Below, piece after piece: positions 30,149 through 54,009 of a stretch of DNA of 64,000 nucleotides. A model generated the notes under the pieces. It did no database searches, had not been told where the DNA came from, and saw only the letters and a program-made list of their open reading frames with translations. Each line of letters opens with the position of its first letter. The first letter of the stretch is position 1. Source of the stretch: Trypanosoma brucei. Taxonomy: Eukaryota. Location: positions 1,088,001-1,152,000 of the forward strand of contig CP000067.1 of the NCBI GenBank assembly GCA_000002445.1, given 5' to 3'. The translations under genes were made by a program, and so were the position numbers.

Positions 30149-30149
30149 C

Positions 30150-33611: not shown

Positions 33612-33630
33612 TATACATACATACATACAT

Positions 33631-33669: not shown

Positions 33670-33673
<4 letters not shown>

Positions 33674-36073: not shown

Positions 36074-37478
36074 CTTTTGTCTTATTGGACGGAAACCTAT
36101 GTCGTTGTTACTGTTTTTTTCTTTTACCCTTGCCTGCCCACACTAGAACTTCTAATACTACCGGTATTTTCCCTTTCCTTTTGTTTCCTTTCTCGCTTGC
36201 AGTACTCCCCTTTGTCTGAAGAGCCCTCTTCTGTTGTTCAATGTAAGAATATCTAAAACAGAAAACCTCTAACAACAAAGTACGAAGGAATCCTTCCCTC
36301 TTTCTGTGTTTTCCGTCCTCTTTCCCCTTCTTTCGCTCGCTTACTACCCTACACTCTGCGTCCTCTACCTCTCTTCTACTTTACAATATATCAACCGGCT
36401 ACCTACCAATCCTAATATGCCACTTCCCCTGCTACCCTAGTACCTACTCAGTGTTGCTAATAATGAAGTAACTAATAATAATATGTAAATATCCCCCTAA
36501 CAACTACAACCCTCTAACAAACCAACACAACCGTCAGGCAGTTCCTTGACACCGTTAGCTCTAGGTACACACTCTACTTTCCACTGACAAAGAGTGAGAA
36601 ACTAGTGCCAACGCTAAAAGAGATGAAAAAGAAACTGCCTTGACTGTGCGTCTCCGCTGCGTACAGCTACACACAAATGTAATCAACCAAAAGAAAAAAA
36701 TGCGCTTCTCTACCTGCTAGTAAACAAGGTCCTAACAACCTACGCCGCCCACTATCACCTTAACTCACCCTAACCCTACCCGGCAATGCCCCTACAAAAA
36801 AAAAGTTCCCCTGATAGTTTCCGTTTCTCGAGAACAATATGACGTAAGAATGAACAAACAAACCTTAATTCACAACCCTTAATGCCTATTGTTTTTGCAC
36901 CACCAAGAAATGGGGGACATAAGTAGGGTAAAAAAGACAAAGACATCAAAAGTTAAGAAAAAACAACAACAACAACAGAATGGAAAATCAGAAGGTAAAG
37001 CAAAACAAACAACGGCCCTAAAAGTTGCATGACCACAAACGAACAAAAAGAAAAGACACAATTAAAACCTGCACGTATTCCTTCTGGAGCTCAATGGCAC
37101 ATGTAATCACCCCGGCAAGCAACAAACCGCGCAGAGGATTTGGCACGATACCAAGAAATGGTACAGGTACAATAAAATTAGATTTAGGGCTCACACACTT
37201 TAGTAAGCACAAACAAGCACCACGTCTTGACTACAGTTCGCGAACAATTTCGTCAAGTACGTACAAACCAACAATCACCATAGTTCTATCTTCCTCCCGC
37301 ATATTTACATTTGATGAATTTTTCTACGAAGTTTCGCCACCGTAATATGCAGAACGCCTAACTCATTCACACATATTGGAGACGTACATAATCAATGGTC
37401 TTTCTGTGCGCACATATGCGTTGAGGTTATGCTCTACACAACAAGGGTTGGCACAAAGGTCTCCCTATGTGGATAAAA

Positions 37479-38471
37479 TCATTGTCCTGCAGCGGCAGAC
37501 TTCGATCTCACACAAACACGCTGGGGAGGAATGGAGGGGCCAGTTTCTGTTAATGTGTCATCTTTCTGCTGTCGACTATGCCGAGTCTCAGTTCGAGATG
37601 CCACCCCAACATTACCTTTCGCTACCTTCGAGAAACCCGTAAATGCACCGAAGGCTGATGAGCCCCGCAACCTTGGATATGGCATTCCACTTAGCCGACG
37701 CGAGGCACCCCACAAAGATGTGGTAGTGTTACATTTCGTGGAGTGAGTAGCATGTGACCGGCAGTTTTTGATATCTTTTAACACCTCATGGGATGCCTTT
37801 ACGAAGCCACTGAAGGACGGCTTTTGCCGCACAACCTCACCATCCATCTTACTGCGCTCACTCGGGTTCTCTGTGAGTGCACCAACAGCTGTACGTTCCT
37901 CCAATTGTACTGTATTGGGAAGTGGCGGAGGCTCAACGGGGTACACATGTGTTGCCGTCTGCTGCACATCGTCACCTTTGATCTTACATTCAGGAGACAC
38001 ACCCTTCAGGTTGGTTTCCACAGCTTGTTTTCCATTGCTTACAGCCGGTTTCACTTTTCGGTCAGTGTGTTTCCTGCATACTTGTGCTGTGCGTTCCGTG
38101 GCAGACGGAAGTACATCCTCACACACATGACCTTTGCTACAGCTCACATCACTCTTTTGTTCGCACGGAGGTGTAGGTGGTTCACTGCAAAGGACTCGCG
38201 TCTGACTTCTTTCCCGCCCTTTACAGTAGTATTCCTCATGGGCCGCTAACCTTGCCATCTCTACTTCCATACCACAGCACGAGCATTCTACCAATTGTTG
38301 CCCACAGCGGCTGATGTGTTCACTACAGCCAAAACGCCTACAATAGGGGCACTTGCGAAGATTTTTGGGCAGTAAATCAGAACTTTTCCGCTTCGTAGGG
38401 TCACGCACAAGAGCACCATTGTACTTCCAGGGTGCACCACTCGTTACAGTTGTCTTGCTCTCCGTTTCCAT
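37479..38471 (-). CDS. TRAF-like zinc-finger protein (330 aa), repeat copy 1
   Basis: 1-kb ORF inside each cassette. Cys/His cluster CPYCRRFGCSEHISRCGQQLVECSCCGMEVEMARLAAHEEYYC fits a TRAF-type C2HC/C3HC pattern. The rest is Ser/Thr/Pro/Lys-rich. Confidence 0.65.
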   Translation of the reverse strand: METESKTTVTSGAPWKYNGALVRDPTKRKSSDLLPKNLRKCPYCRRFGCSEHISRCGQQLVECSCCGMEVEMARLAAHEEYYCKGRERSQTRVLCSEPPTPPCEQKSDVSCSKGHVCEDVLPSATERTAQVCRKHTDRKVKPAVSNGKQAVETNLKGVSPECKIKGDDVQQTATHVYPVEPPPLPNTVQLEERTAVGALTENPSERSKMDGEVVRQKPSFSGFVKASHEVLKDIKNCRSHATHSTKCNTTTSLWGASRRLSGMPYPRLRGSSAFGAFTGFSKVAKGNVGVASRTETRHSRQQKDDTLTETGPSIPPQRVCVRSKSAAAGQ

Positions 38472-38936
38472 GACCTACACCTAAAACAAGACAGCATAAA
38501 TAATTACAGTATTTGGGAAAGGAAGGAGAGCCATGTGTGAACCAGTCGGAAAATGTATCAACGGCAACATGACCTGCACAGAGTTACTGAAGCCACGGTG
38601 TGAGCAACAGCTAGCATTTAAGGAGGGGGAAATATAACACCTATGGGAATAAGTAACGCTTACACAATGTGAAAGGAGGGTTGCAGGAGACTACAGCCAG
38701 TGCAAATGGACACAAGAGTCCTTGCTGCCGCTTTTCATAACACAATCCAACACACAATGCAATGACTCGAGAAACCCCAACACTTCACCAGCACCTGCGG
38801 AAGCTACGGGCGTGTGTGCATGTGTGTGCACAATTTGGGGAACTCGGGCCTGACACAGACAGGATGGCAGGTAATGATAGAGTGGGAGGATTACCGCATT
38901 CCAGCAACTCTACAATGGAATAAACTTGATTCGATA

Positions 38937-38958
38937 CCTTGCATCAACAACTCAAACT
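38937..38958. repeat. 22-bp direct repeat taccttgcatcaacaactcaaa (left copy). The right copy is at 39760-39781. The pair recurs in unit 2 (43491-43512 and 44314-44335), and a single copy is present in unit 3 (48037-48058)
   Basis: Exact 22-nt match read directly. The segment between the two copies is missing from unit 3. Confidence 0.85.
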
Positions 38959-39828
38959 CTCTAAATTTTTGTGAGACGCAGATGGGAAGTGAAGGAACGT
39001 GTATTCGGTGATGATGTTAAAACTAGATAAGATTTTGTGATGCACATGTAGTTATGTTAAAAAAGAAAAAAAATATCGAGGGCTTCCTGGTGGCAAAAGT
39101 TTACCAACCCCCCATCCCCCTAAAAAAAAAAGATTTCACCGTGCAACAGATGTGAAACTGCAGTAAATATTGAGAACTTCCCGTCATTCACACTGCGCAC
39201 TATGACACCGGTTAGCTTATCTTGCTATCAGGGTCTGAAACTTTATGTGGGAGGTGGCTAACATTTAGAGCTTTCTTCACGATATTCAGAAATGACACTG
39301 ACAGAAAGCTGGTGATTACGAAAGGAGCAACGTATATTACTAGCGGTGTTCTTCAGGGGAATGTATGATCCGTGAGTATACGCCCCTGCATGTGTAAATG
39401 GATTGATTCATTTTGCGTGCTAACTCTTTTCTACTTTTCCAGAAAGTGACTTAGGTTGTGGCACCACAAAGCCGTTCCGGCGTATTAAAATTATGATGGA
39501 AAAGAAAGGAGAGGGAAATAGCCTGACTAACATTTGGGGCACCTTATCCATGGAAGGGATCCAAACGTTGTAAAAAAACAAGTCACTGCCACTGACTCAC
39601 ATTGGTATTTGCCGGATAACCTCACCGTGCTCCACGGCTGTACGTACGGTAACAAGACAAAGATTAGCACATGAAAACAAAGAAAAATTTAAGTTCTTTT
39701 AAAAAATACCCATGTTAGGAATATAACACTCTCACGACAAGAAAAAAGAAAATCTGCGGTACCTTGCATCAACAACTCAAAATCAATTTAAAAAAATATA
39801 TGTGTTCACGTTCGAATTCGTGTTCGCC

Positions 39829-40983
39829 CTACAAACAACTCATTTCCCGGAGAGGTCCCTGGCTGCCCGTTAGCGAGCGGTGCGAGATGTTCTTCTCATT
39901 GTTGAACCGCCGCCTCAACTCGTTGTAGTCACTCTCATTTACATGGTGTACCATAATGGAGCTTTTTGTCACGGCTCCCAACGTTGTACCGGCGTGCACA
40001 TCGTGAAACGAGCACTTAGGCTCGTGAACGTAGGTTATATTCGTATGATACATGGCCCTCCGCAATGTAATCCCTACCATTGCGTCTTCAACCATGACAC
40101 AGAGAGACTGGAACTCTTCGTCACGTATTGCTGTGTAGGGGACGTGGATTATTGTTCGAAGGGGCTTATACGAGACAAAACGTTCCGCGACGTCACGTCC
40201 TAGAGTATAGCACGCGCCATAAGCATAATTAAATCGGAAACCTTGCACGGTGTGCACGTCTATCGTACCCCAGTATAGCCCACGGCGAGGTAGGTTGCGT
40301 AAGTCTGCTAGATACTGAGGAACGCGTAGGAACATATCGTCATCTGCCTTCGCAATATACGGGGCATACGGAAATAAGCACACTGACATGTCAAACCACA
40401 AGAATGTCTTGCGGCTCATGCCAATCTCCGCATCAATGCCCCACTTCCCACCTTGACCCACACGCTTCCTACCTGACGGCCGGCCCTCGTTCATTGGCAA
40501 CGTTAAGATGTCACTCCATTGAGTAGCTTCCTCCACCAGTGCCTTGGTATAAGTGTAGCCATTTTCGGGATGTCGCGCAAGGATGTACAGCGGCAGCATT
40601 TCACCAGAGAAACCGTTCGCACGTACTGCAACGCCGGCGTATGTCCAGCATGCTGCCCGTTGCAGGTCGCGGCGGCGCCGTCTCACGTCCAGGTCTATGG
40701 AGGGGATGCCGATTACCACCAAGTACCGTCGCTCCTCCCATGCGCTAACGACGGGAGCTGGGACGTAAGTTAGCGACTGTTTCACCCACAGAGGGCGTTT
40801 CCAGTAGGTGCAGCGTTCGGTGATTTTTTTTCTTTCCCGGCGTCTAACTCGTTCCACATCCTCTAGGAGCGTCCTGAAAGTAACAATCGCCGCGGACACT
40901 GCCAAGAGAATAATGATAAGCCAATACCTCCGCTTGTGTGCTGTACATCTTCTAATCCGATTTCCCCGAAGCGCGGGGGCCAT
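39829..40983 (-). CDS. UDP-Gal/UDP-GlcNAc-dependent glycosyltransferase (GT31-like beta-1,3-glycosyltransferase family), repeat copy 1
   Basis: Type-II signal anchor (RRYWLIIILLAVSAAIVTF), DXD motif (IAKADDDMFL) and YWGTID motif, 384 aa. Typical of the kinetoplastid GT family. Confidence 0.85.
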   Translation of the reverse strand: MAPALRGNRIRRCTAHKRRYWLIIILLAVSAAIVTFRTLLEDVERVRRRERKKITERCTYWKRPLWVKQSLTYVPAPVVSAWEERRYLVVIGIPSIDLDVRRRRRDLQRAACWTYAGVAVRANGFSGEMLPLYILARHPENGYTYTKALVEEATQWSDILTLPMNEGRPSGRKRVGQGGKWGIDAEIGMSRKTFLWFDMSVCLFPYAPYIAKADDDMFLRVPQYLADLRNLPRRGLYWGTIDVHTVQGFRFNYAYGACYTLGRDVAERFVSYKPLRTIIHVPYTAIRDEEFQSLCVMVEDAMVGITLRRAMYHTNITYVHEPKCSFHDVHAGTTLGAVTKSSIMVHHVNESDYNELRRRFNNEKNISHRSLTGSQGPLREMSCL

Positions 40984-41220
40984 AACTACACATCAAAGGC
41001 GTTCATATTTGAGAATCCAGTGGAGTTGAGGGGGCGTAGAGACCCTACTGTCGGTGATAAGTTGACGTAAAAAGTACAGCCGCTGTGGAAGCAAACATCG
41101 TTACCCAACGAACGTACACAAAAACGGAAACGAAACGACCAAAACTGCTGGACCAACGTGTCAGAAAACAATAATCATGACATGAAAGTAAGCCCAACTC
41201 ACGGCCATGCAAGTATTCAC

Positions 41221-41290
41221 ACATACGAAAACAACAAAAATAACGTCGCCTGAAAAAAAAAACAAAACCAAACAATAGTAAGAAGTTACT
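41221..41290 (-). promoter_or_regulatory. polypyrimidine (T-rich on coding strand) tract upstream of glycosyltransferase copy 1. An identical tract sits at 45775-45840 upstream of copy 2
   Basis: The plus strand reads acgaaaacaacaaaaataacgtcgcctgaaaaaaaaaacaaaaccaaacaatag. Confidence 0.4.
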
Positions 41291-42032
41291 TCAAGATATC
41301 AACCTGAATCCGCTGCGCATGTAAGCGCTGCTAGAGAGCAAAACGTAATAAAGAAAAAAAAAACGTGCCACAAAATAGCAAAAGGTGAATTTATTACTCG
41401 CTAGATATGGGGGGAAAAAGCGAGCGACTGTCGTAGCCATTCTTTTAATTCAGCCCTGGTACACGTCCATTTACTTAACAGGGGAGAGGCATCGCCTCAT
41501 CGTCGAAAATACCCACAAAACGGAGGTTTAAGAACTCTAGATGGATAAAAGCTCGATCCACAGTGGCTGTGTGGTAAGTGGCATGGCACGCTATTCAACC
41601 CAATAATAAGGTAAAAATTAACAAACAAAAGGTTCTGAGCAAAGCATACACTGCATACAACCACCCCGGCAAGCAACAAACCGCGCAGAGGATTTGGCAC
41701 GATACCAAGAAATGGTACAGGTACAATAAAATTAGATTTAGGGCTCACACACTTTAGTAAGCACAAACAAGCACCACGTCTTGACTACAGTTCGCGAACA
41801 ATTTCGTCAAGTACGTACAAACCAACAATCACCATAGTTCTATCTTCCTCCCGCATATTTACATTTGATGAATTTTTCTACGAAGTTTCGCCACCGTAAT
41901 ATGCAGAACGCCTAACTCATTCACACATATTGGAGACGTACATAATTAATGGTCCTTCTGTGCGCACATATGCGTTGAGGTTATGCTCTACACAACAAGG
42001 GTTGGCACAAAGGTCTCCCCACGTGGATAAAA

Positions 42033-43025
42033 TCATTGTCCTGCAGCGGCAGACTTCGATCTCACACAAACACGCTGGGGAGGAATGGAGGGGCCAGTTT
42101 CTGTTAATGTGTCATCTTTCTGCTGTCGACTATGCCGAGTCTCAGTTCGAGATGCCACCCCAACATTACCTTTCGCTACCTTCGAGAAACCCGTAAATGC
42201 ACCGAAGGCTGATGAGCCCCGCAACCTTGGATATGGCATTCCACTTAGCCGACGCGAGGCACCCCACAAAGATGTGGTAGTGTTACATTTCGTGGAGTGA
42301 GTAGCATGTGACCGGCAGTTTTTGATATCTTTTAACACCTCATGGGATGCCTTTACGAAGCCACTGAAGGACGGCTTTTGCCGCACAACCTCACCATCCA
42401 TCTTACTGCGCTCACTCGGGTTCTCTGTGAGTGCACCAACAGCTGTACGTTCCTCCAATTGTACTGTATTGGGAAGTGGCGGAGGCTCAACGGGGTACAC
42501 ATGTGTTGCCGTCTGCTGCACATCGTCACCTTTGATCTTACATTCAGGAGACACACCCTTCAGGTTGGTTTCCACAGCTTGTTTTCCATTGCTTACAGCC
42601 GGTTTCACTTTTCGGTCAGTGTGTTTCCTGCATACTTGTGCTGTGCGTTCCGTGGCAGACGGAAGTACATCCTCACACACATGACCTTTGCTACAGCTCA
42701 CATCACTCTTTTGTTCGCACGGAGGTGTAGGTGGTTCACTGCAAAGGACTCGCGTCTGACTTCTTTCCCGCCCTTTACAGTAGTATTCCTCATGGGCCGC
42801 TAACCTTGCCATCTCTACTTCCATACCACAGCACGAGCATTCTACCAATTGTTGCCCACAGCGGCTGATGTGTTCACTACAGCCAAAACGCCTACAATAG
42901 GGGCACTTGCGAAGATTTTTGGGCAGTAAATCAGAACTTTTCCGCTTCGTAGGGTCACGCACAAGAGCACCATTGTACTTCCAGGGTGCACCACTCGTTA
43001 CAGTTGTCTTGCTCTCCGTTTCCAT
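42033..43025 (-). CDS. TRAF-like zinc-finger protein (330 aa), repeat copy 2
   Basis: Identical to copy 1. Confidence 0.65.
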   Translation of the reverse strand: METESKTTVTSGAPWKYNGALVRDPTKRKSSDLLPKNLRKCPYCRRFGCSEHISRCGQQLVECSCCGMEVEMARLAAHEEYYCKGRERSQTRVLCSEPPTPPCEQKSDVSCSKGHVCEDVLPSATERTAQVCRKHTDRKVKPAVSNGKQAVETNLKGVSPECKIKGDDVQQTATHVYPVEPPPLPNTVQLEERTAVGALTENPSERSKMDGEVVRQKPSFSGFVKASHEVLKDIKNCRSHATHSTKCNTTTSLWGASRRLSGMPYPRLRGSSAFGAFTGFSKVAKGNVGVASRTETRHSRQQKDDTLTETGPSIPPQRVCVRSKSAAAGQ

Positions 43026-44382
43026 GACCTACACCTAAAACAAGACAGCATAAATAATTACAGTATTTGGGAAAGGAAGGAGAGCCATGTGTGAACCAGT
43101 CGGAAAATGTATCAACGGCAACATGACCTGCACAGAGTTACTGAAGCCACGGTGTGAGCAACAGCTAGCATTTAAGGAGGGGGAAATATAACACCTATGG
43201 GAATAAGTAACGCTTACACAATGTGAAAGGAGGGTTGCAGGAGACTACAGCCAGTGCAAATGGACACAAGAGTCCTTGCTGCCGCTTTTCATAACACAAT
43301 CCAACACACAATGCAATGACTCGAGAAACCCCAACACTTCACCAGCACCTGCGGAAGCTACGGGCGTGTGTGCATGTGTGTGCACAATTTGGGGAACTCG
43401 GGCCTGACACAGACAGGATGGCAGGTAATGATAGAGTGGGAGGATTACCGCATTCCAGCAACTCTACAATGGAATAAACTTGATTCGATACCTTGCATCA
43501 ACAACTCAAACTCTCTAAATTTTTGTGAGACGCAGATGGGAAGTGAAGGAACGTGTATTCGGTGATGATGTTAAAACTAGATAAGATTTTGTGATGCACA
43601 TGTAGTTATGTTAAAAAAGAAAAAAAATATCGAGGGCTTCCTGGTGGCAAAAGTTTACCAACCCCCCATCCCCCTAAAAAAAAAAGATTTCACCGTGCAA
43701 CAGATGTGAAACTGCAGTAAATATTGAGAACTTCCCGTCATTCACACTGCGCACTATGACACCGGTTAGCTTATCTTGCTATCAGGGTCTGAAACTTTAT
43801 GTGGGAGGTGGCTAACATTTAGAGCTTTCTTCACGATATTCAGAAATGACACTGACAGAAAGCTGGTGATTACGAAAGGAGCAACGTATATTACTAGCGG
43901 TGTTCTTCAGGGGAATGTATGATCCGTGAGTATACGCCCCTGCATGTGTAAATGGATTGATTCATTTTGCGTGCTAACTCTTTTCTACTTTTCCAGAAAG
44001 TGACTTAGGTTGTGGCACCACAAAGCCGTTCCGGCGTATTAAAATTATGATGGAAAAGAAAGGAGAGGGAAATAGCCTGACTAACATTTGGGGCACCTTA
44101 TCCATGGAAGGGATCCAAACGTTGTAAAAAAACAAGTCACTGCCACTGACTCACATTGGTATTTGCCGGATAACCTCACCGTGCTCCACGGCTGTACGTA
44201 CGGTAACAAGACAAAGATTAGCACATGAAAACAAAGAAAAATTTAAGTTCTTTTAAAAAATACCCATGTTAGGAATATAACACTCTCACGACAAGAAAAA
44301 AGAAAATCTGCGGTACCTTGCATCAACAACTCAAAATCAATTTAAAAAAATATATGTGTTCACGTTCGAATTCGTGTTCGCC

Positions 44383-45537
44383 CTACAAACAACTCATTTC
44401 CCGGAGAGGTCCCTGGCTGCCCGTTAGCGAGCGGTGCGAGATGTTCTTCTCATTGTTGAACCGCCGCCTCAACTCGTTGTAGTCACTCTCATTTACATGG
44501 TGTACCATAATGGAGCTTTTTGTCACGGCTCCCAACGTTGTACCGGCGTGCACATCGTGAAACGAGCACTTAGGCTCGTGAACGTAGGTTATATTCGTAT
44601 GATACATGGCCCTCCGCAATGTAATCCCTACCATTGCGTCTTCAACCATGACACAGAGAGACTGGAACTCTTCGTCACGTATTGCTGTGTAGGGGACGTG
44701 GATTATTGTTCGAAGGGGCTTATACGAGACAAAACGTTCCGCGACGTCACGTCCTAGAGTATAGCACGCGCCATAAGCATAATTAAATCGGAAACCTTGC
44801 ACGGTGTGCACGTCTATCGTACCCCAGTATAGCCCACGGCGAGGTAGGTTGCGTAAGTCTGCTAGATACTGAGGAACGCGTAGGAACATATCGTCATCTG
44901 CCTTCGCAATATACGGGGCATACGGAAATAAGCACACTGACATGTCAAACCACAAGAATGTCTTGCGGCTCATGCCAATCTCCGCATCAATGCCCCACTT
45001 CCCACCTTGACCCACACGCTTCCTACCTGACGGCCGGCCCTCGTTCATTGGCAACGTTAAGATGTCACTCCATTGAGTAGCTTCCTCCACCAGTGCCTTG
45101 GTATAAGTGTAGCCATTTTCGGGATGTCGCGCAAGGATGTACAGCGGCAGCATTTCACCAGAGAAACCGTTCGCACGTACTGCAACGCCGGCGTATGTCC
45201 AGCATGCTGCCCGTTGCAGGTCGCGGCGGCGCCGTCTCACGTCCAGGTCTATGGAGGGGATGCCGATTACCACCAAGTACCGTCGCTCCTCCCATGCGCT
45301 AACGACGGGAGCTGGGACGTAAGTTAGCGACTGTTTCACCCACAGAGGGCGTTTCCAGTAGGTGCAGCGTTCGGTGATTTTTTTTCTTTCCCGGCGTCTA
45401 ACTCGTTCCACATCCTCTAGGAGCGTCCTGAAAGTAACAATCGCCGCGGACACTGCCAAGAGAATAATGATAAGCCAATACCTCCGCTTGTGTGCTGTAC
45501 ATCTTCCAATCCGATTTCCCCGAAGCGCGGGGGCCAT
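44383..45537 (-). CDS. UDP-Gal/UDP-GlcNAc-dependent glycosyltransferase, repeat copy 2
   Basis: Differs from copy 1 by one residue (R11G). Confidence 0.85.
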   Translation of the reverse strand: MAPALRGNRIGRCTAHKRRYWLIIILLAVSAAIVTFRTLLEDVERVRRRERKKITERCTYWKRPLWVKQSLTYVPAPVVSAWEERRYLVVIGIPSIDLDVRRRRRDLQRAACWTYAGVAVRANGFSGEMLPLYILARHPENGYTYTKALVEEATQWSDILTLPMNEGRPSGRKRVGQGGKWGIDAEIGMSRKTFLWFDMSVCLFPYAPYIAKADDDMFLRVPQYLADLRNLPRRGLYWGTIDVHTVQGFRFNYAYGACYTLGRDVAERFVSYKPLRTIIHVPYTAIRDEEFQSLCVMVEDAMVGITLRRAMYHTNITYVHEPKCSFHDVHAGTTLGAVTKSSIMVHHVNESDYNELRRRFNNEKNISHRSLTGSQGPLREMSCL

Positions 45538-46212
45538 AACTACACATCAAAGGCGTTCATATTTGAGAATCCAGTGGAGTTGAGGGGGCGTAGAGACCCT
45601 ACTGTCGGTGATAAGTTGACGTAAAAAGTACAGCCGCTGTGGAAGCAAACATCGTTACCCAACGAACGTACACAAAAACGGAAACGAAACGACCAAAACT
45701 GCTGGACCAACGTGTCAGAAAACAATAATCATGACATGAAAGTAAGCCCAACTCACGGCCATGCAAGTATTCACACATACGAAAACAACAAAAATAACGT
45801 CGCCTGAAAAAAAAAAAAACCAAACAATAGTAAGAAGTTACTTCAAGATATCAACCTGAATCCGCTGCGCATGTAAGCGCTGCTAGAGAGCAAAACGTAA
45901 TAAAGAAAAAAAAACGTGCCACAAAATAGCAAAAGGTGAATTTATTACTCGCTAGATATGGGGGGAAAAAGCGAGCGACTGTCGTAGCCATTCTTTTAAT
46001 TCAGCCCTGGTACACGTCCATTTACTTAACAGGGGAGAGGCATCGCCTCATCGTCGAAAATACCCACAAAACGGAGGTTTAAGAACTCTAGATGGATAAA
46101 AGCTCGATCCACAGTGGCTGTGTGGTAAGTGGCATGACACGCTATTCAACCCAATAATAAGGTAAAAATTAACAAACAAAAGGTTCTGAGCAAAGCATAC
46201 ACTGCATACAAC

Positions 46213-49078
46213 CACCCCGGCAAGCAACAAACCGCGCAGAGGATTTGGCACGATACCAAGAAATGGTACAGGTACAATAAAATTAGATTTAGGGCTCACA
46301 CACTTTAGTAAGCACAAACAAGCACCACGTCTTGACTACAGTTCGCGAACAATTTCGTCAAGTACGTACAAACCAACAATCACCATAGTTCTATCTTCCT
46401 CCCGCATATTTACATTTGATGAATTTTTCTACGAAGTTTCGCCACCGTAATATGCAGAACGCCTAACTCATTCACACATATTGGAGACGTACATAATCAA
46501 TGGTCTTTCTGTGCGCACATATGCGTTGAGGTTATGCTCTACACAACAAGGGTTGGCACAAAGGTCTCCCCATGTGGATAAAATCATTGTCCTGCAGCGG
46601 CAGACTTCGATCTCACACAAACACGCTGGGGAGGAATGGAGGGGCCAGTTTCTGTTAATGTGTCATCTTTCTGCTGTCGACTATGCCGAGTCTCAGTTCG
46701 AGATGCCACCCCAACATTACCTTTCGCTACCTTCGAGAAACCCGTAAATGCACCGAAGGCTGATGAGCCCCGCAACCTTGGATATGGCATTCCACTTAGC
46801 CGACGCGAGGCACCCCACAAAGATGTGGTAGTGTTACATTTCGTGGAGTGAGTAGCATGTGACCGGCAGTTTTTGATATCTCTTAACACCTCATGGGATG
46901 CCTTTACGAAGCCACTGAAGGACGGCTTTTGCCGCACAACCTCACCATCCATCTTACTGCGCTCACTCGGGTTCTCTGTGAGTGCACCAACAGCTGTACG
47001 TTCCTCCAATTGTACTGTATTGGGAAGTGGCGGAGGCTCAACGGGGTACACATGTGTTGCCGTCTGCTGCACATCGTCACCTTTGATCTTACATTCAGGA
47101 GACACACCCTTCAGGTTGGTTTCCACAGCTTGTTTTCCATTGCTTACAGCCGGTTTCACTTTTCGGTCAGTGTGTTTCCTGCATACTTGTGCTGTGCGTT
47201 CCGTGGCAGACGGAAGTACATCCTCACACACATGACCTTTGCTACAGCTCACATCACTCTTTTGTTCGCACGGAGGTGTAGGTGGTTCACTGCAAAGGAC
47301 TCGCGTCTGACTTCTTTCCCGCCCTTTACAGTAGTATTCCTCATGGGCCGCTAACCTTGCCATCTCTACTTCCATACCACAGCACGAGCATTCTACCAAT
47401 TGTTGCCCACAGCGGCTGATGTGTTCACTACAGCCAAAACGCCTACAATAGGGGCACTTGCGAAGATTTTTGGGCAGTAAATCAGAACTTTTCCGCTTCG
47501 TAGGGTCACGCACAAGAGCACCATTGTACTTCCAGGGTGCACCACTCGTTACAGTTGTCTTGCTCTCCGTTTCCATGACCTACACCTAAAACAAGACAGC
47601 ATAAATAATTACAGTATTTGGGAAAGGAAGGAGAGCCATGTGTGAACCAGTCGGAAAATGTATCAACGGCAACATGACCTGCACAGAGTTACTGAAGCCA
47701 CGGTGTGAGCAACAGCTAGCATTTAAGGAGGGGGAAATATAACACCTATGGGAATAAGTAACGCTTACACAATGTGAAAGGAGGGTTGCAGGAGACTACA
47801 GCCAGTGCAAATGGACACAAGAGTCCTTGCTGCCGCTTTTCATAACACAATCCAACACACAATGCAATGACTCGAGAAACCCCAACACTTCACCAGCACC
47901 TGCGGAAGCTACAGGCGTGTGTGCATGTGTGTGCACAATTTGGGGAACTCGGGCCTGACACAGACAGGATGGCAGGTAATGATAGAGTGGGAGGATTACC
48001 GCATTCCAGCAACTCTACAATGGAATAAACTTGATTCGATACCTTGCATCAACAACTCAAAATCAATTTAAAAAAATATATGTGTTCACGTTCGAATTCG
48101 TGTTCGCCCTACAAACAACTCATTTCCCGGAGAGGTCCCTGGCTGCCCGTTAGCGAGCGGTGCGAGGTGTTCTTCTCATTGTTGAACCGCCGCCTCAACT
48201 CGTTGTAGTCACTCTCATTTACATGGTGTACCATAATGGAGCTTTTTGTCACGGCTCCCAACGTTGTACCGGCGTGCACATCGTGAAACGAGCACTTAGG
48301 CTCGTGAACGTAGGTTATATTCGTATGATACATGGCCCTCCGCAATGTAATCCCTACCATTGCGTCTTCAACCATGACACAGAGAGACTGGAACTCTTCG
48401 TCACGTATTGCTGTGTAGGGGACGTGGATTATTGTTCGAAGGGGCTTATACGAGACAAAACGTTCCGCGACGTCACGTCCTAGAGTATAGCACGCGCCAT
48501 AAGCATAATTAAATCGGAAACCTTGCACGCTGAGCACGTCTATCGTACCCCAGTATAGCCCACGGCGAGGTAGGTTGCGTAAGTCTGCTAGATACTGAGG
48601 AACGCGTAGGAACATATCGTCATCTGCCTTCGCAATATACGGGGCATACGGAAATAAGCACACTGACATGTCAAACCACAAGAATGTCTTGCGGCTCATG
48701 CCAATCTCCGCATCAATGCCCCACTTCCCACCTTGACCCACACGCTTCCTACCTGACGGCCGGCCCTCGTTCATTGGCAACGTTAAGATGTCACTCCATT
48801 GAGTAGCTTCCTCCACCAGTGCCTTGGTATAAGTGTAGCCATTTTCGGGATGTCGCGCAAGGATGTACAGCGGCAGCATTTCACCAGAGAAACCGTTCGC
48901 ACGTACTGCAACGCCGGCGTATGTCCAGCATGCTGCCCGTTGCAGGTCGCGGCGGCGCCGTCTCACGTCCAGGTCTATGGAGGGGATGCCGATTACCACC
49001 AAGTACCGTCGCTCCTCCCATGCGCTAACGACGGGAGCTGGGACGTAAGTTAGCGACTGTTTCACCCACAGAGGGTGC
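46213..49078. repeat. repeat unit 3 (truncated, carries internal 823-bp deletion)
   Basis: See array. The glycosyltransferase start-to-start spacing is 3726 bp instead of 4554 bp. Confidence 0.9.
46584..47576 (-). CDS. TRAF-like zinc-finger protein (330 aa), repeat copy 3
   Basis: One conservative K to R difference from copies 1 and 2. Confidence 0.65.
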   Translation of the reverse strand: METESKTTVTSGAPWKYNGALVRDPTKRKSSDLLPKNLRKCPYCRRFGCSEHISRCGQQLVECSCCGMEVEMARLAAHEEYYCKGRERSQTRVLCSEPPTPPCEQKSDVSCSKGHVCEDVLPSATERTAQVCRKHTDRKVKPAVSNGKQAVETNLKGVSPECKIKGDDVQQTATHVYPVEPPPLPNTVQLEERTAVGALTENPSERSKMDGEVVRQKPSFSGFVKASHEVLRDIKNCRSHATHSTKCNTTTSLWGASRRLSGMPYPRLRGSSAFGAFTGFSKVAKGNVGVASRTETRHSRQQKDDTLTETGPSIPPQRVCVRSKSAAAGQ

Positions 49079-49266
49079 TCTGAGAGATGTTGACCTTTAT
49101 TGGCTATAGCTGTTTTCGGAACGTTGATTTCCCTTTTGCCGGCTCTCTCTGAGTTGTTGGAGAGCGTTGTCAAGAGAGATGTGACAACGCATATGGTAAA
49201 GAGCAATACCGTCAAAGAAATGCTGCTGCGCAGTATTCTTCCGCGACTGTTAAATTGCCTACACAT
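48109..49266 (-). CDS. UDP-Gal/UDP-GlcNAc-dependent glycosyltransferase, array-edge copy with divergent N-terminal 64 residues
   Basis: Catalytic region identical to copies 1 and 2 from PLWVKQSL onward, with 2-3 substitutions (HT to LS, I to T). The N-terminal cytoplasmic tail, TM and stem are unrelated (MCRQFNSRGRILRSSISLTVLLFTICVV...). Confidence 0.85.
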   Translation of the reverse strand: MCRQFNSRGRILRSSISLTVLLFTICVVTSLLTTLSNNSERAGKREINVPKTAIANKGQHLSEHPLWVKQSLTYVPAPVVSAWEERRYLVVIGIPSIDLDVRRRRRDLQRAACWTYAGVAVRANGFSGEMLPLYILARHPENGYTYTKALVEEATQWSDILTLPMNEGRPSGRKRVGQGGKWGIDAEIGMSRKTFLWFDMSVCLFPYAPYIAKADDDMFLRVPQYLADLRNLPRRGLYWGTIDVLSVQGFRFNYAYGACYTLGRDVAERFVSYKPLRTIIHVPYTAIRDEEFQSLCVMVEDAMVGITLRRAMYHTNITYVHEPKCSFHDVHAGTTLGAVTKSSIMVHHVNESDYNELRRRFNNEKNTSHRSLTGSQGPLREMSCL

Positions 49267-49685
49267 TATATAGAGGTGACTGTCTTTTGAAAGTATAGTA
49301 GAATAGTGAGAGTGTTGGTGTAGTAAATAGCGGGTTCTAACGATCGTATGCGCGTTCTTGTTGATGTTTTTTTCTGTTAATTTGCCGATATAACAGTAAG
49401 GTGGAGGGGAATTGCCTCACTTTGATGATTTGCTTTTCCTCTGCATCACTGTGTGCATGTAACGTTACAGCAGGATACGCTGTTTGTGGTGGTTGTCCTC
49501 TTTTGAGCTATTCGCTCTTTTTTCCCTCAGCGAAATGTAGCACCTTGACCCTCCCATTTACAATTCTCTCTGATGTCGAGTTAAGTTGGATCGCTGTGAT
49601 GGTAGTGCGGTCTTCTCTGTTTGTTCGGAGGTCATTGCAAAGAACTCCGGCTCTTTAACCAAGTCTCCTTTTTTCCCCCCTCTCA

Positions 49686-51536
49686 TCAGCGTTGAGTTCT
49701 CAGAACTGCATCGGCAGCGTCACCTGCTCTACGACGTAGCGGAAGGAACCCAAAGCGATAAAGCGTGTACGATACAGAGTAGCAGCGTGGGTAGAGCTGT
49801 GTCAGTTCATCACCTTCTTCAATGCGACTATTTGCACGAACTACTGCACACACCGCCTCCTTGCACATTCCGGCAGTATTGGCGACCTTGTTACTATCAT
49901 TTGAGAGTGAAATCTTCTCTATACTGCAGCTTGTATTTGACATACCTCCTGGTGGGTGCTGAAGCATATCTACTATGGGAACGATTGTCGCTATTGTATG
50001 GGGCTGAAAATCATTCACGCCGACACGGTTACGGTCGACAACCCTGAAAATGTTGTCCATGACGCCCATATGCATTTTTGTTATCAGACGTGTCCATAGA
50101 TGTAGTTTCTGAAGCACTTTTTCTTCGCTGCAAATGTCCTCGAAATGCTCAGTATGTCGTCGGAGGGGAAGAAGTCGCTGACGTGATAAAACAACACGTA
50201 GCGCCCACGTCAGATCATCCATTGATGGTGGCGGGAGCCGACCAGGAGTGGTGCACTGCGTTTTCCCTTCTTCGATGGGAGATCTCGCATTCACCACATC
50301 GTTGCCATCATTCGGTGATACGGAGCCGTCGACAGAGGAGACCTCTCCCGCACCAGAGCAAACAGCACTCTCATACTCCTGTTGCCATCTGTTACGGATT
50401 TGACGAAGGTAATGAGAGAATCTGCCACAGTGGTCAGTGTATTCAAGATGTGTCGCTGGGTCAAGCACCCCAAGGTGCAACTCCCGTATGAAGTCGTCGT
50501 CGAACGGAGAGAGAAGCCGCAAGTAAGAAAACAGGGGACTTTTGGCTCCCTCCGCACGCTCGCAGGCCAGAAGCAGGGCGAAATGTACCTGGTCGACGAA
50601 AAGTGGATGTGGAAGTGGATCGAACGAAGACTTTCGTTGACCAACAATCGCTTCCACACTTTGATACGAAGGAACACCGCGGCGTTGCGCCGCCACCGAG
50701 TGCCGTTGGAGATTCTCTGAATTGATCGTCAAACTCCAGGGCGTAAGGTTACCCTCGGAGGCAACTGAGGGTGCCGGTGAAGATGGCACAAACTCATCCG
50801 CGCTATCTGCCCCCAAAGCACCATAGAGAGGCACTGCGAATATCATGTCACCTTTGTGGAACGGTTTGCGTGCGACTAAGCCACGAGAATACTGCGATCG
50901 CAGATGAAAGTCAACGTTGTCCGTGAGCATGTTCCACAGCACTGTTTGCGAGCTCTTTATCAGCTCCTCACGAAACCATGCAAGAAAGTCCTGCACATGG
51001 TCCTCGGGCACCGTTCCCATACTATCAGTTGATATCCAATTCTCCACCCGGATGCGTTGCCTCCCCAGCTGTGGGGAAGTGAGGCTTGAGGCCCACATGG
51101 GGAGAGGCGCCTTCGGCGAATTGTTGGGAACCTCGTACACAGACAATGCGTCCGGAGGATGTCGTTCACTTGGGTCACTAAGGAACGAGAATTTTGGTTT
51201 ACGATACACTGCTGGCGGCAGCTCTTCCTCTGCCAACGGTGCTACCGCCGCTAGTGTTGCAATTCGCGGCGCGAACATTTCCTTCTTCCTTATAGTAGAT
51301 TGTACCTCCTCCGCCTGAAGGGAGGAGCCTGCTTGAGGTTCCACGCTTTCCAACGCAACGCGCAGCTGTTCATTCATTTCAACTTGCTGCCGCGCAGCAA
51401 TACCACAATTTGCGGGGTCACGTTCTTCATACGATACAAGCCTCTTTGAGGCATACCACACATCTCGTCTGAGTGGCACAAACGAAGAAGTTGCCACTCG
51501 TCTCCACATTGATAGAAGCGCATCCCTCTTCCTCAT
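49686..51536 (-). CDS. SET domain-containing protein (putative protein lysine methyltransferase, LSMT-like)
   Basis: SRGLVARKPFHKGDMIFAVPLYG, IVPIVDMLQHPPGG and a C-terminal YTLYRFGFLP are arranged like Rubisco-LSMT-type SET domains. Moderate confidence. Confidence 0.6.
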   Translation of the reverse strand: MRKRDALLSMWRRVATSSFVPLRRDVWYASKRLVSYEERDPANCGIAARQQVEMNEQLRVALESVEPQAGSSLQAEEVQSTIRKKEMFAPRIATLAAVAPLAEEELPPAVYRKPKFSFLSDPSERHPPDALSVYEVPNNSPKAPLPMWASSLTSPQLGRQRIRVENWISTDSMGTVPEDHVQDFLAWFREELIKSSQTVLWNMLTDNVDFHLRSQYSRGLVARKPFHKGDMIFAVPLYGALGADSADEFVPSSPAPSVASEGNLTPWSLTINSENLQRHSVAAQRRGVPSYQSVEAIVGQRKSSFDPLPHPLFVDQVHFALLLACERAEGAKSPLFSYLRLLSPFDDDFIRELHLGVLDPATHLEYTDHCGRFSHYLRQIRNRWQQEYESAVCSGAGEVSSVDGSVSPNDGNDVVNARSPIEEGKTQCTTPGRLPPPSMDDLTWALRVVLSRQRLLPLRRHTEHFEDICSEEKVLQKLHLWTRLITKMHMGVMDNIFRVVDRNRVGVNDFQPHTIATIVPIVDMLQHPPGGMSNTSCSIEKISLSNDSNKVANTAGMCKEAVCAVVRANSRIEEGDELTQLYPRCYSVSYTLYRFGFLPLRRRAGDAADAVLRTQR

Positions 51537-52137: not shown

Positions 52138-54009
52138 TTAGTACCTCCTACACGGCCTTTTTCGCACACTTGAAGTGACTCCTTCTTGGGGTGCAGCTGG
52201 TTTAAGCGCGCCGCTTCCATCCCATTGGACCGAACCAAAAGAATTAGATGTCGTGGTGGCTGAGCCGAAGGCGGTGGTGGGAGCCAAGGCACCAACGGGG
52301 AATGAAGCGTTGTTGCCGAACGCGGTCGGTTCCGATAGGGTGGCAAACGGACTTGCATTAGGCAAGGGGTCCCTCGTTACCTCTGGCCCAGTCGAAACTG
52401 AGGTTTGCGCCGCTGAAGAAGAAGGGAATGAGAAGCATCCCCCGGGTCCCGGGGCACTCGCCACTGCTGCGTTATTCCCATTTGTCGTATTTTCCACTGG
52501 CTTGGGTGCGTTTCCAAAGCTAAAACTCGACGTGGAAGATTCAGTGGCGCCTGCACCACCAAATGAAAACCCGCCGCTTGGTGCCTGCGCTTGTGTTGCT
52601 GTTGCCCCTTCGGTGGACACGGCTGCACCAAAGGGAGTGGATGCATTTGGGCCGAAAGGTTTCGCTGTGCTTATGGAACCGAACGAAAACCTGTTTGCTG
52701 ATGCTGGTGTTGTTTCTGATCCACCAGTGGGTGTGGCAGAGGCGGGAGCTGCAGGGATGCTGAAGGGTTTGGGTGGCTCGCTCGTGGCAGCTGTAGCACT
52801 GTTCAACCCGCCGAACGAATATGTATCAGCTGACTTCGGTGTTGTTGCTGTTCCTTCAGTTGGTCCCCCAGCAGGCTTCACGGTGCCAAACGGCGACGAT
52901 GTTTTGTCTTCATGGGTTGCAGTCACAGCCACGGAACCAAACGAAAATGTGCCACTTGATTTTGGAGGCGCTGCTGATCCCTCAGTGGATATCAATGTGC
53001 CAAATGTGGCAGATGACTTGTTGGTGGATACCGCGTTTATACCTGTGCTACTGGACGAAACCGTTCCCGTCGACACTGGAGCTACTGGCGGTTCCGCAGC
53101 TGGTGAGGTAAACGGAGCGACCCCAGAGGAGGTCGGTTGTCTGTTGGCAGAGCCCGCGCTTAGATTTGCGGGAGCCTGTGGAATACGGGGCTGGTGTTTG
53201 ATGTCATCCAGCAGCTTTTCGAGCACAGCAACGGCAGTGGAGTTCTGTGTGGTCTCTTTGCGCAGGGTAAGTAGTTCACTTTGGAGGCACTCGACCACCC
53301 TTCGCATTCCATTGAGGGAGCTCACTGACTGCTCTACAGATGTATTTCGGCCCTCCAAAAGTTGTACATGTTTGGATAACTGGGCCACCTCCACACGCAG
53401 GTCAGTGATCGCCTGATCGGCATGCTGCTTTGACCGCTCAATCTCTTCCCGGCTGCGCCTTAGCTCATCACGTGCCTCCTCTATACTCCTGTTGAGTTTC
53501 TCATACTGCTCCTGCAAACGCACCAGGTCGGCCGACATGCTGGCGAAACTGGCACTTTCCCTATTTCCCGCGGTACTCGCCGCCGTGATCGGTTCTTTTC
53601 GGGGCAGTTTCGCATGCCTGTAGGCATCTAAAGACTCGCTATGTATTGCCCGTTCTCCAAAATCACTTATGGGCCGCACGGGACCTTGATGGGATTCATC
53701 ATATGGATTTACCACATCGCAATGGTGAGAACCCGGTGTCGCTCCAGCGAAACCCACAGTATTTTCTCCTATAGAGTTGTTGTGACACCGACTGTACCAT
53801 GAGCTTTCGCGCCCACGTTTTCCGCCCACCGTCAGAGCTGCAGCTTGAGGTCCGGGTGCTCTCGCTTGTGCGACCGACGTAGAAAGCTGAGTTGGCGTGT
53901 CGCTCAGCGTAATATCCTCAACAGATACATTTGGTGTAAAAATACGCGGGACAGCAATGGAATGCTCTGGTGTTATAAAATAATTCGACACGATGGTCTT
54001 CCGGTGCAT
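52138..54009 (-). CDS. FG-repeat nucleoporin-like protein (central coiled coil, C-terminal FSFG/FG repeats)
   Basis: Multiple FSFG, SFG and PFG repeats in a Ser/Thr/Ala/Gly-rich C-terminal half. A heptad coiled-coil segment sits at residues ~150-270. Confidence 0.7.
   Translation of the reverse strand: MHRKTIVSNYFITPEHSIAVPRIFTPNVSVEDITLSDTPTQLSTSVAQARAPGPQAAALTVGGKRGRESSWYSRCHNNSIGENTVGFAGATPGSHHCDVVNPYDESHQGPVRPISDFGERAIHSESLDAYRHAKLPRKEPITAASTAGNRESASFASMSADLVRLQEQYEKLNRSIEEARDELRRSREEIERSKQHADQAITDLRVEVAQLSKHVQLLEGRNTSVEQSVSSLNGMRRVVECLQSELLTLRKETTQNSTAVAVLEKLLDDIKHQPRIPQAPANLSAGSANRQPTSSGVAPFTSPAAEPPVAPVSTGTVSSSSTGINAVSTNKSSATFGTLISTEGSAAPPKSSGTFSFGSVAVTATHEDKTSSPFGTVKPAGGPTEGTATTPKSADTYSFGGLNSATAATSEPPKPFSIPAAPASATPTGGSETTPASANRFSFGSISTAKPFGPNASTPFGAAVSTEGATATQAQAPSGGFSFGGAGATESSTSSFSFGNAPKPVENTTNGNNAAVASAPGPGGCFSFPSSSAAQTSVSTGPEVTRDPLPNASPFATLSEPTAFGNNASFPVGALAPTTAFGSATTTSNSFGSVQWDGSGALKPAAPQEGVTSSVRKRPCRRY

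What the first reader, a model, noticed from the sequence alone, without database searches (positions are those of the whole stretch)
48040..49266. Array-edge glycosyltransferase copy has a chimeric N-terminus (different cytoplasmic tail, TM and stem)
Identity between unit 3 and units 1/2 ends abruptly at 49078 (cacagaggg|tgctctgag versus cacagaggg|cgtttccag). That position is codon ~65 of the glycosyltransferase. Copy 3 therefore encodes MCRQFNSRGRILRSSISLTVLLFTICVVTSLLTTLSNNSERAGKREINVPKTAIANKGQHLSEH in place of MAPALRGNRIRRCTAHKRRYWLIIILLAVSAAIVTF... Both versions are type-II signal anchors, but their tails and stems are unrelated. For Golgi glycosyltransferases the cytoplasmic tail, TM and stem specify sub-Golgi localisation and retention. 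The first-transcribed copy may therefore be targeted differently from the internal copies. The repeat boundary falling inside a coding region is also a clear footprint of how the array was built: unequal crossover within the gene.
Basis: seen in the sequence. Interest (0 to 1): 0.5.

Follow-up and report, generated by a model that had tools for sequence, protein, structure and literature searches.

The report
Glycosyltransferase gene array with two N-termini
Three near-identical Trypanosoma brucei glycosyltransferase genes differ only in their first ~64 codons; the array-edge copy keeps the ancestral membrane anchor and the two internal copies carry an orphan one, which is the ordinary mosaic left by concerted evolution of a tandem array.

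Summary
The window is T. brucei TREU927 chromosome 4. It holds three units of a GT67 glycosyltransferase gene plus a Cys-rich 330-aa ORF, all on the minus strand. Beyond that point nothing aligns. Independent assemblies reproduce both junction types, so it is not an assembly join.

The edge copy's N-terminus (N3) is homologous and colinear with the chromosome-8 paralogues (37% over 49 aa, E=9e-7; shuffle z about 10). The internal copies' N-terminus (N1) lies on an 863-bp segment (J) with no detectable homologue. No donor gene exists for copy 3.

Six core sites partition by genome and none by N-terminal type, so the catalytic core evolves in concert and codon 64/65 is the edge of the homogenised block. 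T. congolense has a syntenic three-unit array with the same pattern.

J has no counterpart in either flank, so one unequal crossover inside the gene cannot explain the array. Differential Golgi targeting is plausible but untested. This is a new example of a known kind; interest is modest.

The parts
48109..49266 (-). GT3, the array-edge GT67 glycosyltransferase ORF (385 aa; inferred to be Tb927.4.4290, XP_844579)
   Evidence: ORF. Exact match to XP_844579 of T. b. brucei TREU927. Pfam PF01762 Galactosyl_T 27.8 bits against a cut-off of 23.
49076..49266 (-). N3 module: codons 1-64 of GT3 (tail, TM, stem). It lies outside the repeat and is homologous to the N-terminus of the chr8 paralogues.
49075..49076 (.).
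   Evidence: The same position is seen in T. equiperdum OVI.
48109..49075 (-). Shared catalytic core of GT3 (P65 to stop), 99.6% identical to GT1 and GT2. It carries the GT67 motifs WG, YIAKADDD and EDAMVG.
   Evidence: Motif definitions from PMC9472816.
44383..45537 (-). GT2, internal copy (384 aa, N1 type with G11; XP_844577)
39829..40983 (-). GT1, internal copy (384 aa, N1 type with R11; XP_844575)
40796..41658 (-). J, copy 1: 863 bp made of 675 bp of T-rich 5' intergenic sequence plus 188 nt encoding N1. It is present only between units and has no detectable homologue.
45350..46209 (-). J, copy 2 (99.4% identical to copy 1)
37105..49075 (-). The whole array: U1 37105-41658, U2 41659-46209, U3 46210-49075 (U3 lacks J and K)
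38957..39759 (-). K, copy 1: 803 bp in the GT 3' intergenic region of U1 (a second copy lies at 43511-44313 in U2). It is absent from U3.
48040..48061 (+). The single copy in U3 of the 22-nt direct repeat r (TACCTTGCATCAACAACTCAAA). In U1 and U2 r brackets K, at 38935-38956 / 39760-39781 and 43489-43510 / 44314-44335.
   Evidence: 5 exact copies, 0 expected by chance.
46584..47576 (-). Cys-rich 330-aa ORF ('ZnF') of U3, the co-repeated partner gene. Other copies lie at 42033-43025 and 37479-38471.
   Evidence: No Pfam family. A paralogue lies on chr8 and homologues lie in the T. congolense array.

Best explanation
The finding is the upstream edge of a tandem array of (GT67 glycosyltransferase + Cys-rich ORF) units on T. 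brucei chromosome 4. The genes are inferred to be Tb927.4.4240-4290, with the GTs forming the 'TbGT4' subfamily of GT67 lineage 1. Recombination between units (unequal crossover and gene conversion) keeps a block nearly identical in all three units. That block runs from GT codon 65 through the 3' intergenic region, the Cys-rich ORF and its tail. Homogenisation cannot extend past the point where the first unit stops being repeated, which is codon 64/65 of the GT. The array therefore stably encodes two isoforms with one catalytic domain. The edge gene carries the ancestral cytoplasmic tail, TM and stem (N3), inherited from before the chromosome 4/8 duplication. The internal genes carry a different module (N1) that sits with its own 5' intergenic region on an 863-bp inter-unit segment (J). 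The minimal ancestor is a two-unit array, flank-N3-[block]-J-[block]-flank. Unequal crossover between blocks then adds or removes only J-type units, giving three units in TREU927. Shown here: the boundary, the homology of N3 to the chr8 paralogues, the orphan status of N1, the presence of both types in several strains, and exchange of core variants between the two types. Inferred: the recombination mechanism, the age and origin of J, and any functional difference between the isoforms in localisation or expression.
For: 1. Structure: self-BLAST and junction prints.
2. N3 is ancestral. tblastn of GT3 against the chr8 locus gives one HSP over residues 3-384, while GT1 aligns only from residue 62. 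N3 alone against P0002 gives 37% identity over 49 colinear residues, E=9e-7. Smith-Waterman score is 66, z=10-11, with 0 of 500-1000 shuffles reaching it. Other family N-termini reach at most z=5.5, which reflects anchor architecture only.
3. N1 is an orphan. There is no alignment to P0002. A full HMMER scan of 1.84 billion representatives gave only one spurious hit, to a repeat ORF. J has no BLASTN or tblastx match in any fetched locus.
4. Concerted evolution. Of 11 variable core sites across nine copies, six separate TREU927 (both N-types) from the other genomes (both N-types). None separates N1-type from N3-type.
5. Both types are old within T. brucei. J is 98.3% identical in four Logan assemblies and is present in T. 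equiperdum OVI.
6. The array is ancient. The chr8 duplicon holds a GT remnant, then ZnF, three GTs and ZnF. The syntenic T. congolense locus holds GT403-ZnF-GT374-ZnF-GT364-ZnF, and identity between the first and internal copies is confined to the core, starting at about codon 51. The chr4/8 duplication is T. brucei-specific according to PMC2212663.
7. N1 coding sequence is compositionally coding-like (GC 0.51, T 0.21), unlike the adjacent J intergenic part (GC 0.42, T 0.39).
8. The general pattern is already described for T. brucei arrays: divergent 5' copies accompanied by unalignable intergenic regions (PMC1855330).
Against: The origin of J and N1 is unresolved. N-terminal anchors of this lineage are not alignable between T. 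brucei, T. congolense and T. vivax, so orthology of N1 with the T. congolense internal-copy N-terminus cannot be shown. On chromosome 8 the copies downstream of the ZnF gene carry N3-like, not N1-like, N-termini. That pattern fits a later, chr4-specific origin of N1 at least as well as an ancient one. DAL972 and IVM-t1 assemblies show only one unit, N3 type. This may be a real one-unit allele or a collapsed repeat, and I could not tell which. The concerted-evolution table compares N1-type and N3-type copies from different non-TREU927 genomes, not from within one of them. No expression or localisation data were examined.
Confidence: 0.7

Rival explanations
1. Recent origin of the internal-copy N-terminus, specific to chromosome 4. 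A duplication breakpoint at codon 64/65 produced 5'-truncated internal GT copies. These were rescued by an 863-bp segment (J) that supplied a new splice-acceptor region, start codon and signal anchor. J would have been captured from elsewhere in the genome or evolved de novo from intergenic sequence. N1 would then be a young, T. brucei-specific orphan module.
For: N1 and J have no homologue anywhere searched. The chr8 copies that follow the ZnF gene carry N3-like N-termini, which suggests that internal copies were N3-like at the time of the chr4/8 duplication. On chr8 the first full GT copy is an example of the truncated intermediate: homology starts inside the TM coding region, with stop codons upstream and no start codon. 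Translations of the T-rich J spacer readily give TM-like stretches.
Against: The N1 coding sequence has coding-like composition (GC 0.51, T 0.21, GC3 0.53), not that of the adjacent T-rich spacer. That argues against very recent recruitment of spacer DNA. An 863-bp filler that supplies an in-frame, well-formed type-II anchor by chance is improbable. T. congolense shows the same split between first-copy and internal-copy N-termini, so the two-type design may be old. No source sequence was found.
Confidence: 0.2
2. The array-edge copy 3 is a chimera that acquired a foreign tail, TM and stem from another glycosyltransferase gene, and the internal copies show the original N-terminus.
For: Only the bare fact that copy 3 differs from the two-copy majority.
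Against: N3 is colinear and significantly similar to the N-terminus of the nearest paralogues on chr8, and N1 is not. The similarity is 37% against about 58% in the core. That is far too diverged for a recent transfer and is what a fast-evolving region would show after the old chr4/8 duplication. N3 is contiguous with the conserved upstream flank in four independent assemblies. No other family member among 80 retrieved proteins matches N3 better than the chr8 paralogue does.
Confidence: 0.04
3. Assembly artefact: the N3/core junction is a mis-join of two loci in the TREU927 assembly.
For: Tandem arrays are often mis-assembled. The DAL972 and IVM-t1 assemblies may have collapsed this array.
Against: The same flank-N3-core junction at the same nucleotide is present in DAL972, IVM-t1 and OVI. 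The J-N1-core junction is present in OVI and in four Logan assemblies.
Confidence: 0.01

Closest known systems
T. brucei tandem arrays with 'mixed dynamics' or divergent 5' copies (Jackson 2007, BMC Evol Biol 7:54, PMC1855330)
   Same: Copies are homogenised by concerted evolution. A terminal copy differs and is accompanied by an intergenic region that cannot be aligned with the internal ones. Conversion tracts often end in or near the start of the coding sequence.
   Different: This two-gene-unit array was not found in the held supplementary text of that paper. Its GT entry #30 is the 7-copy array at 1.425 Mb on chr4. Here the divergence is confined to a discrete 64-codon targeting module, and the terminal copy is the one that keeps the ancestral form.
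Phosphoglycerate kinase PGKB/PGKC and hexose transporter THT1/THT2 arrays of T. brucei. These are cited in PMC2212663; details of PGKC targeting are from my own knowledge.
   Same: Tandem paralogues have cores kept alike by gene conversion, while a terminal segment differs and specifies a different compartment or stage. In PGKC this is a C-terminal extension giving glycosomal import.
   Different: In those arrays the functional consequence has been shown experimentally, and here it has not. Here the variable module is an N-terminal signal anchor of a Golgi-type enzyme.
T. congolense IL3000 syntenic lineage-1 GT array (P0003, P0004; loci L007, L008)
   Same: The flanking genes are the same, and three GT + Cys-rich-ORF units are present. 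The first GT has a different N-terminus from the internal ones, and the homogenised tract starts just after the stem.
   Different: In T. congolense only the GT core is homogenised (94-97%). The partner ORFs and spacers have diverged, the C-termini also differ, and the boundary lies about 18 aligned codons further upstream. The N-termini are not alignable with either T. brucei type.
Chromosome-8 paralogous array (Tb927.8.8090/8100, 'TbGT16'; locus L009)
   Same: It has the same ancestry through the chr4/8 duplication, the repeat boundary again falls inside the N-terminal coding region, and its N-terminus is homologous to N3.
   Different: The GT copies are directly adjacent, without an interleaved ZnF gene. 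The first copy lacks a start codon and part of the TM. No N1-like module is present.

Membership tests
GT67 / beta-3-glycosyltransferase superfamily (kinetoplastid UDP-Gal/UDP-GlcNAc-dependent GTs) | Sequence membership: Pfam Galactosyl_T (PF01762) above the gathering score, and closest relatives annotated as trypanosome UDP-Gal/GlcNAc GTs | tested here: met
   Scores of 27.8 and 27.7 bits against a cut-off of 23. All 74 hits are Trypanosoma proteins, nearly all annotated as GT67-type glycosyltransferases.
GT67 / beta-3-glycosyltransferase superfamily | The three motifs WG, Y(I/V/F)xKxDDD and ED(A/V/I/L/M)(M/L)x(G/A), as given in PMC9472816 | tested here: met
   GGKWG, YIAKADDD and EDAMVG are all present in the shared core of all three copies (translations; motifs quoted).
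GT67 / beta-3-glycosyltransferase superfamily | Type-II membrane topology (short basic tail, single TM, stem, lumenal catalytic domain) | tested here: met
   Hydropathy and charge analysis of both N-termini. This is a prediction only.
GT67 / beta-3-glycosyltransferase superfamily | Glycosyltransferase activity and Golgi localisation | not testable with these tools
   The TbGT4 subfamily is described as uncharacterised (PMC9472816; PMC5853035).
Tandem array evolving in concert (unequal crossover / gene conversion) | Paralogues within a genome are more alike than the same positional copy in other genomes | tested here: met
   Six of 11 variable core sites partition TREU927 from the other genomes irrespective of N-type, and none partitions by N-type. 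Caveat: the non-TREU927 N1-type and N3-type copies come from different genomes.
Tandem array evolving in concert | A sharp transition from near-identity to unalignable sequence at the array edge, with a remodelled intergenic region | tested here: met
   The best match of N3 is the gene's own chr8 paralogue, colinear at 37% identity. No other match was found among 80 family proteins. The word-index search with N3 alone returned nothing, not even the near-identical cluster representative P0001, so it is uninformative.
Simple tandem duplication by one unequal crossover | Every base of the array derives from the single-copy locus, so the junction is end-of-unit joined directly to start-of-unit | tested here: not met
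   J (863 bp) and K (803 bp) have no counterpart in the flanks or in the one-unit loci of DAL972 and IVM-t1.

The most novel reading that the evidence does not exclude
The internal-copy N-terminus (N1, on segment J) is a T. brucei-specific orphan signal-anchor module, captured or evolved de novo, that rescued 5'-truncated duplicates. More generally, lineage-1 GT67 arrays would repeatedly swap their tail/TM/stem module while recombination keeps the catalytic domain uniform. This is seen three times: chr4, chr8 and T. congolense. It would imply selection for one enzyme activity delivered to different Golgi sub-compartments or expressed from different UTRs.
Probability: 0.2. Interest if true: 0.55.

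Novelty: new member of a known kind. Interest (0 to 1): 0.3.

Why it matters
TbGT4 belongs to GT67 lineage 1. PMC9472816 proposes this lineage as a candidate for the still-unidentified beta-1,4-galactosyltransferase that builds bloodstream-form poly-LacNAc.

Knowing that the locus encodes two isoforms matters for knock-out, tagging and proteomic design. The isoforms share a catalytic domain but have different tail, TM and stem, different 5' spacers and, in TREU927, different 3' spacers. N-terminal tags, UTR-based constructs and 'unique peptide' assignments will behave differently for Tb927.4.4290 than for Tb927.4.4250 and Tb927.4.4270.

In evolutionary terms this is a clean, strain-replicated example of how the edge of a homogenised block can preserve an ancestral targeting module while the internal copies carry another. 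The phenomenon itself is already well documented in trypanosome arrays.

Tried and rejected
1. Word-index protein searches with the isolated N1 and N3 peptides returned 'no candidate'. The N3 search failed to find even its own near-identical cluster representative, P0001. Both nulls are therefore uninformative and I do not use them as evidence.

2. The exhaustive HMMER scan with N1 gave one hit, P0081. It is a 416-aa ORF made of six copies of a 67-aa repeat, and it matches only 20 residues per repeat. I rejected it as a repeat-inflated chance match.

3. I searched for a source of J and K by BLASTN (word 7) and tblastx against the window, the chr8 locus, the T. congolense loci and the other strains. 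Only T-rich low-complexity matches appeared.

4. I looked for a frameshifted or decayed N3-like remnant inside J by three-frame translation. None was found.

5. I tried to use T. vivax, T. grayi and T. cruzi as outgroups. The T. vivax contig is syntenic but ends just after its single GT. Its N-terminus, which is longer than annotated, aligns with neither type. The T. grayi and T. cruzi best hits lie at non-syntenic loci.

6. I checked whether the array is Jackson's array #30. It is not: #30 is the 7-copy array at 1.425 Mb.

7. I considered K as a mobile element. It has no poly-A tail or RIME/ingi-like features in the sequence read, and a 22-nt flanking repeat is too long for a typical target-site duplication. 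Deletion between the repeats is more likely.
Full report
**What the window is.** The three glycosyltransferase ORFs are exact matches to XP_844575, XP_844577 and XP_844579 of Trypanosoma brucei brucei TREU927, on a 1,590,432-bp record, i.e. chromosome 4. All long ORFs in the window lie on the minus strand, so transcription runs from high to low coordinates.

The gene order downstream of the finding matches the locus pairs listed for the chr4/chr8 duplicons in PMC2212663: a Rab-like GTPase, an RRM protein, then three ZnF + GT pairs, then a 616-aa and a 623-aa protein. From this order I infer that GT1, GT2 and GT3 are Tb927.4.4250, Tb927.4.4270 and Tb927.4.4290. Pereira & Jackson list these three with Tb927.8.8090 and Tb927.8.8100 (PMC5853035). 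[quoted passage not shown] The gene-ID assignment is an inference from order and accession numbers, not a look-up.

**The observation.** A self-BLASTN defines the array. U1 is 37105-41658, U2 is 41659-46209, and a partial U3 is 46210-49075. U3 matches U1 and U2 at 99.6-99.8%.

Identity ends between 49075 and 49076. Sensitive BLASTN and tblastx found nothing alignable beyond the boundary. By hydropathy and charge, both N-termini look like type-II signal anchors.

Two further structural facts were not in the finding.
- The internal copies' N-terminus (N1, 63 codons) sits on an 863-bp segment, J (40796-41658 and 45350-46209). J also contains 675 bp of T-rich 5' spacer and has no counterpart in either flank of the array.
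- U3 lacks an 803-bp segment, K, in the GT 3' spacer. In U1 and U2, K is bracketed by an exact 22-nt direct repeat.

**Not an artefact.** The junction of upstream flank, N3 and core is found at the same nucleotide in T. b. gambiense DAL972, T. b. equiperdum IVM-t1 and T. equiperdum OVI. The junction of ZnF, J, N1 and core is found at the end of the OVI contig and in four independent Logan assemblies, ERR7929157, ERR7929159, ERR7929161 and ERR7929162, with J at 98.3% identity.

DAL972 and IVM-t1 show a single unit of N3 type. This may be a real one-unit allele or a collapsed repeat, because the path through the unique edges of a collapsed array would look exactly like that.

**Which N-terminus is the odd one?** The nearest paralogues lie on the chromosome-8 duplicon. 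tblastn of GT3 against that locus (L009) gives one HSP over residues 3-384, whereas GT1 aligns only from residue 62.

| Comparison | Result |
|---|---|
| N3 alone vs chr8 protein P0002 | 37% identity over 49 colinear residues, E=9e-7 |
| N1 alone vs P0002 | no alignment with E <= 100 |
| N3 vs chr8 N-terminus, Smith-Waterman | score 66, z=10-11, 0 of 500-1000 shuffles reach it |
| All other N-terminal comparisons in the family, including N1 vs N3 | z <= 5.5 |

I attribute the z <= 5.5 values to shared 'basic tail + TM' architecture rather than to homology.

An exhaustive HMMER scan of 1.84 billion representatives with N1 found only a repeat-inflated chance hit. The edge copy is therefore colinear with its family across the boundary. 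The internal copies are the ones with an orphan N-terminus. The 37% identity, against about 58% in the core, is what a fast-evolving anchor region would show after the old chr4/8 duplication, not after a recent transfer.

**Why the boundary is sharp.** I aligned the 967-nt core from nine copies:
- TREU927 GT1, GT2 and GT3;
- the N3-type copies of DAL972 and IVM-t1;
- the N1-type copies of the four Logan assemblies.

There are 11 variable sites. Six separate TREU927 (both N-types) from all the others (both N-types). None separates N1-type from N3-type. The two amino-acid differences between GT3 and GT1/GT2 in TREU927 (LS vs HT) are not type-specific either.

Core variants have therefore been exchanged between the two gene types since these strains diverged, while J and N3 have remained distinct. 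This is concerted evolution with a fixed upstream limit. The caveat is that the non-TREU927 N1-type and N3-type copies come from different genomes.

**How old is the arrangement?**
- The chr8 duplicon holds a GT C-terminal remnant, then a ZnF paralogue, three GT copies and a second ZnF paralogue. The pre-duplication locus therefore already had more than one GT-ZnF unit.
- The syntenic T. congolense locus has the same upstream genes and carries GT403, ZnF388, GT374, ZnF-like 460, GT364 and ZnF-like 543.
- In T. congolense the first and internal GTs are 94-95% identical only from about codon 51 to about 90 nt before the stop codon of the first copy. The N-termini, C-termini, partner ORFs and spacers have diverged.
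- The chr4/8 duplication is reported to be T. brucei-specific (PMC2212663).

The design 'first copy with one anchor, internal copies with another, shared core' thus recurs in the sister species. On chr8 the repeat boundary again falls inside the N-terminal coding region: homology of the first full copy begins inside the TM, with stop codons upstream.

Orthology of the N-terminal modules between species cannot be shown, because they are unalignable.

**Best model.** The ancestral array has two units, flank-N3-[block]-J-[block]-flank. Its blocks are homogenised by recombination. Unequal crossover between blocks adds or deletes only J-type units, giving three units in TREU927 and possibly one in some strains.

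The origin of J remains open. Coding-like composition of N1 (GC 0.51, T 0.21, against 0.42 and 0.39 in the J spacer) and the T. congolense parallel favour an old second-gene N-terminus. N3-like N-termini on the chr8 internal copies favour a later, chr4-specific replacement.

**Function.** The shared core has all three GT67 motifs and passes the Pfam threshold. In TREU927 the two isoforms differ in several respects.

| Feature | N1 type (internal copies) | N3 type (edge copy) |
|---|---|---|
| Tail net charge | +7 | +4 |
| Uncharged stretch | 17 aa | 23 aa |
| Stem | 27 aa, 16 charged residues | 28 aa, includes an NNS sequon |
| 5' spacer | own spacer within J | unrelated spacer |
| 3' spacer | contains K | lacks K |

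In other eukaryotes the tail, TM and stem set Golgi retention, and in trypanosomes UTRs set stage-specific expression. Both statements are general knowledge and were not tested here. Different targeting or regulation of the isoforms is plausible but unproven.

**Novelty.** The general phenomenon is documented for T. brucei arrays: concerted evolution, divergent terminal copies with unalignable spacers, and conversion tracts ending near start codons (PMC1855330). The PGK and hexose-transporter arrays are classical cases (cited in PMC2212663).

[quoted passage not shown] I found no description of its two N-terminal types in the papers searched, although that library is incomplete. I rate it a new member of a known kind, of modest interest.

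Noticed in passing
window 38935-39781 and 43489-44335 (U1, U2) versus 48040-48061 (U3): There is an 825-bp indel in the GT 3' intergenic region: K (803 bp) plus one copy of an exact 22-nt direct repeat, TACCTTGCATCAACAACTCAAA. K is present after GT1 and GT2 and absent after GT3 and in DAL972 and IVM-t1. It is present after the first GT in T. equiperdum OVI, although that assembly has an N gap there. It looks like a deletion between short direct repeats, and it gives the edge gene a different 3' spacer/UTR in TREU927.
   Followed up: partly
L009 (T. b. equiperdum chr8 duplicon) 4119-16044: The chr8 paralogous array is a GT C-terminal remnant, then ZnF, three directly adjacent GT copies and ZnF. 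The first full GT copy shares homology only from inside the TM coding region (ICATVLLL...), with stop codons upstream, and is annotated from a downstream Met without a TM. The third copy aligns to GT3 only as two separate tblastn segments (12532-12840 and 12843-13673), consistent with a frameshift. Its last ~140 nt match the upstream remnant (98%) rather than the other copies (81%).
   Followed up: partly
L007 812-12674 and L008 (T. congolense IL3000): The syntenic three-unit GT + Cys-rich-ORF array has homogenisation confined to the GT core (94-97%). The partner ORFs are 388, 460 and 543 aa and strongly diverged. The T. brucei partner ORF looks like a mosaic: its N-terminus resembles the 460/543-aa genes and its Cys motif resembles the 388-aa gene.
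   Followed up: partly
window 49209-49266 (first 20 codons of GT3) compared with L001 and L002: Between TREU927 and the gambiense and equiperdum strains, the 64-codon N3 module has 4 non-synonymous and 2 synonymous differences, all 4 non-synonymous ones in the first 20 codons. The 321-codon core has 3 non-synonymous and 4-5 synonymous differences. The cytoplasmic tail evolves fast.
   Followed up: partly
L011 9880-10000 (T. vivax): The annotated T. vivax orthologue (352 aa) lacks a TM. The in-frame upstream sequence, starting at MHRGYCASRFGRTYHYVWGLLLFMLIVTLIS..., supplies a normal type-II anchor, so the deposited start codon is probably too far downstream.
   Followed up: no
window 37788-38249, 42342-42803 and 46893-47354 (+); 52175-53416 (+); 49586-50047 (+): Long ORFs lie antisense to the Cys-rich ORF, the FG-rich 623-aa gene and the 616-aa gene. 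They are repeated only because their host genes are, or they arise from biased composition. They are very probably not genes.
   Followed up: no
window 30000-34000: A long AT-rich stretch (GC 0.37-0.38) lies between the Rab-like GTPase and the RRM gene. It is A-rich on the plus strand and contains short A/G-rich microsatellites. The only weak BLASTN matches of J and K fall here and are low-complexity.
   Followed up: partly
tool behaviour: The word-index protein search returned no candidates for the 64-aa N3 peptide, although the cluster representative P0001 is 94% identical to it. Nulls from that tool with short peptides should not be read as absence of homologues.
   Followed up: yes
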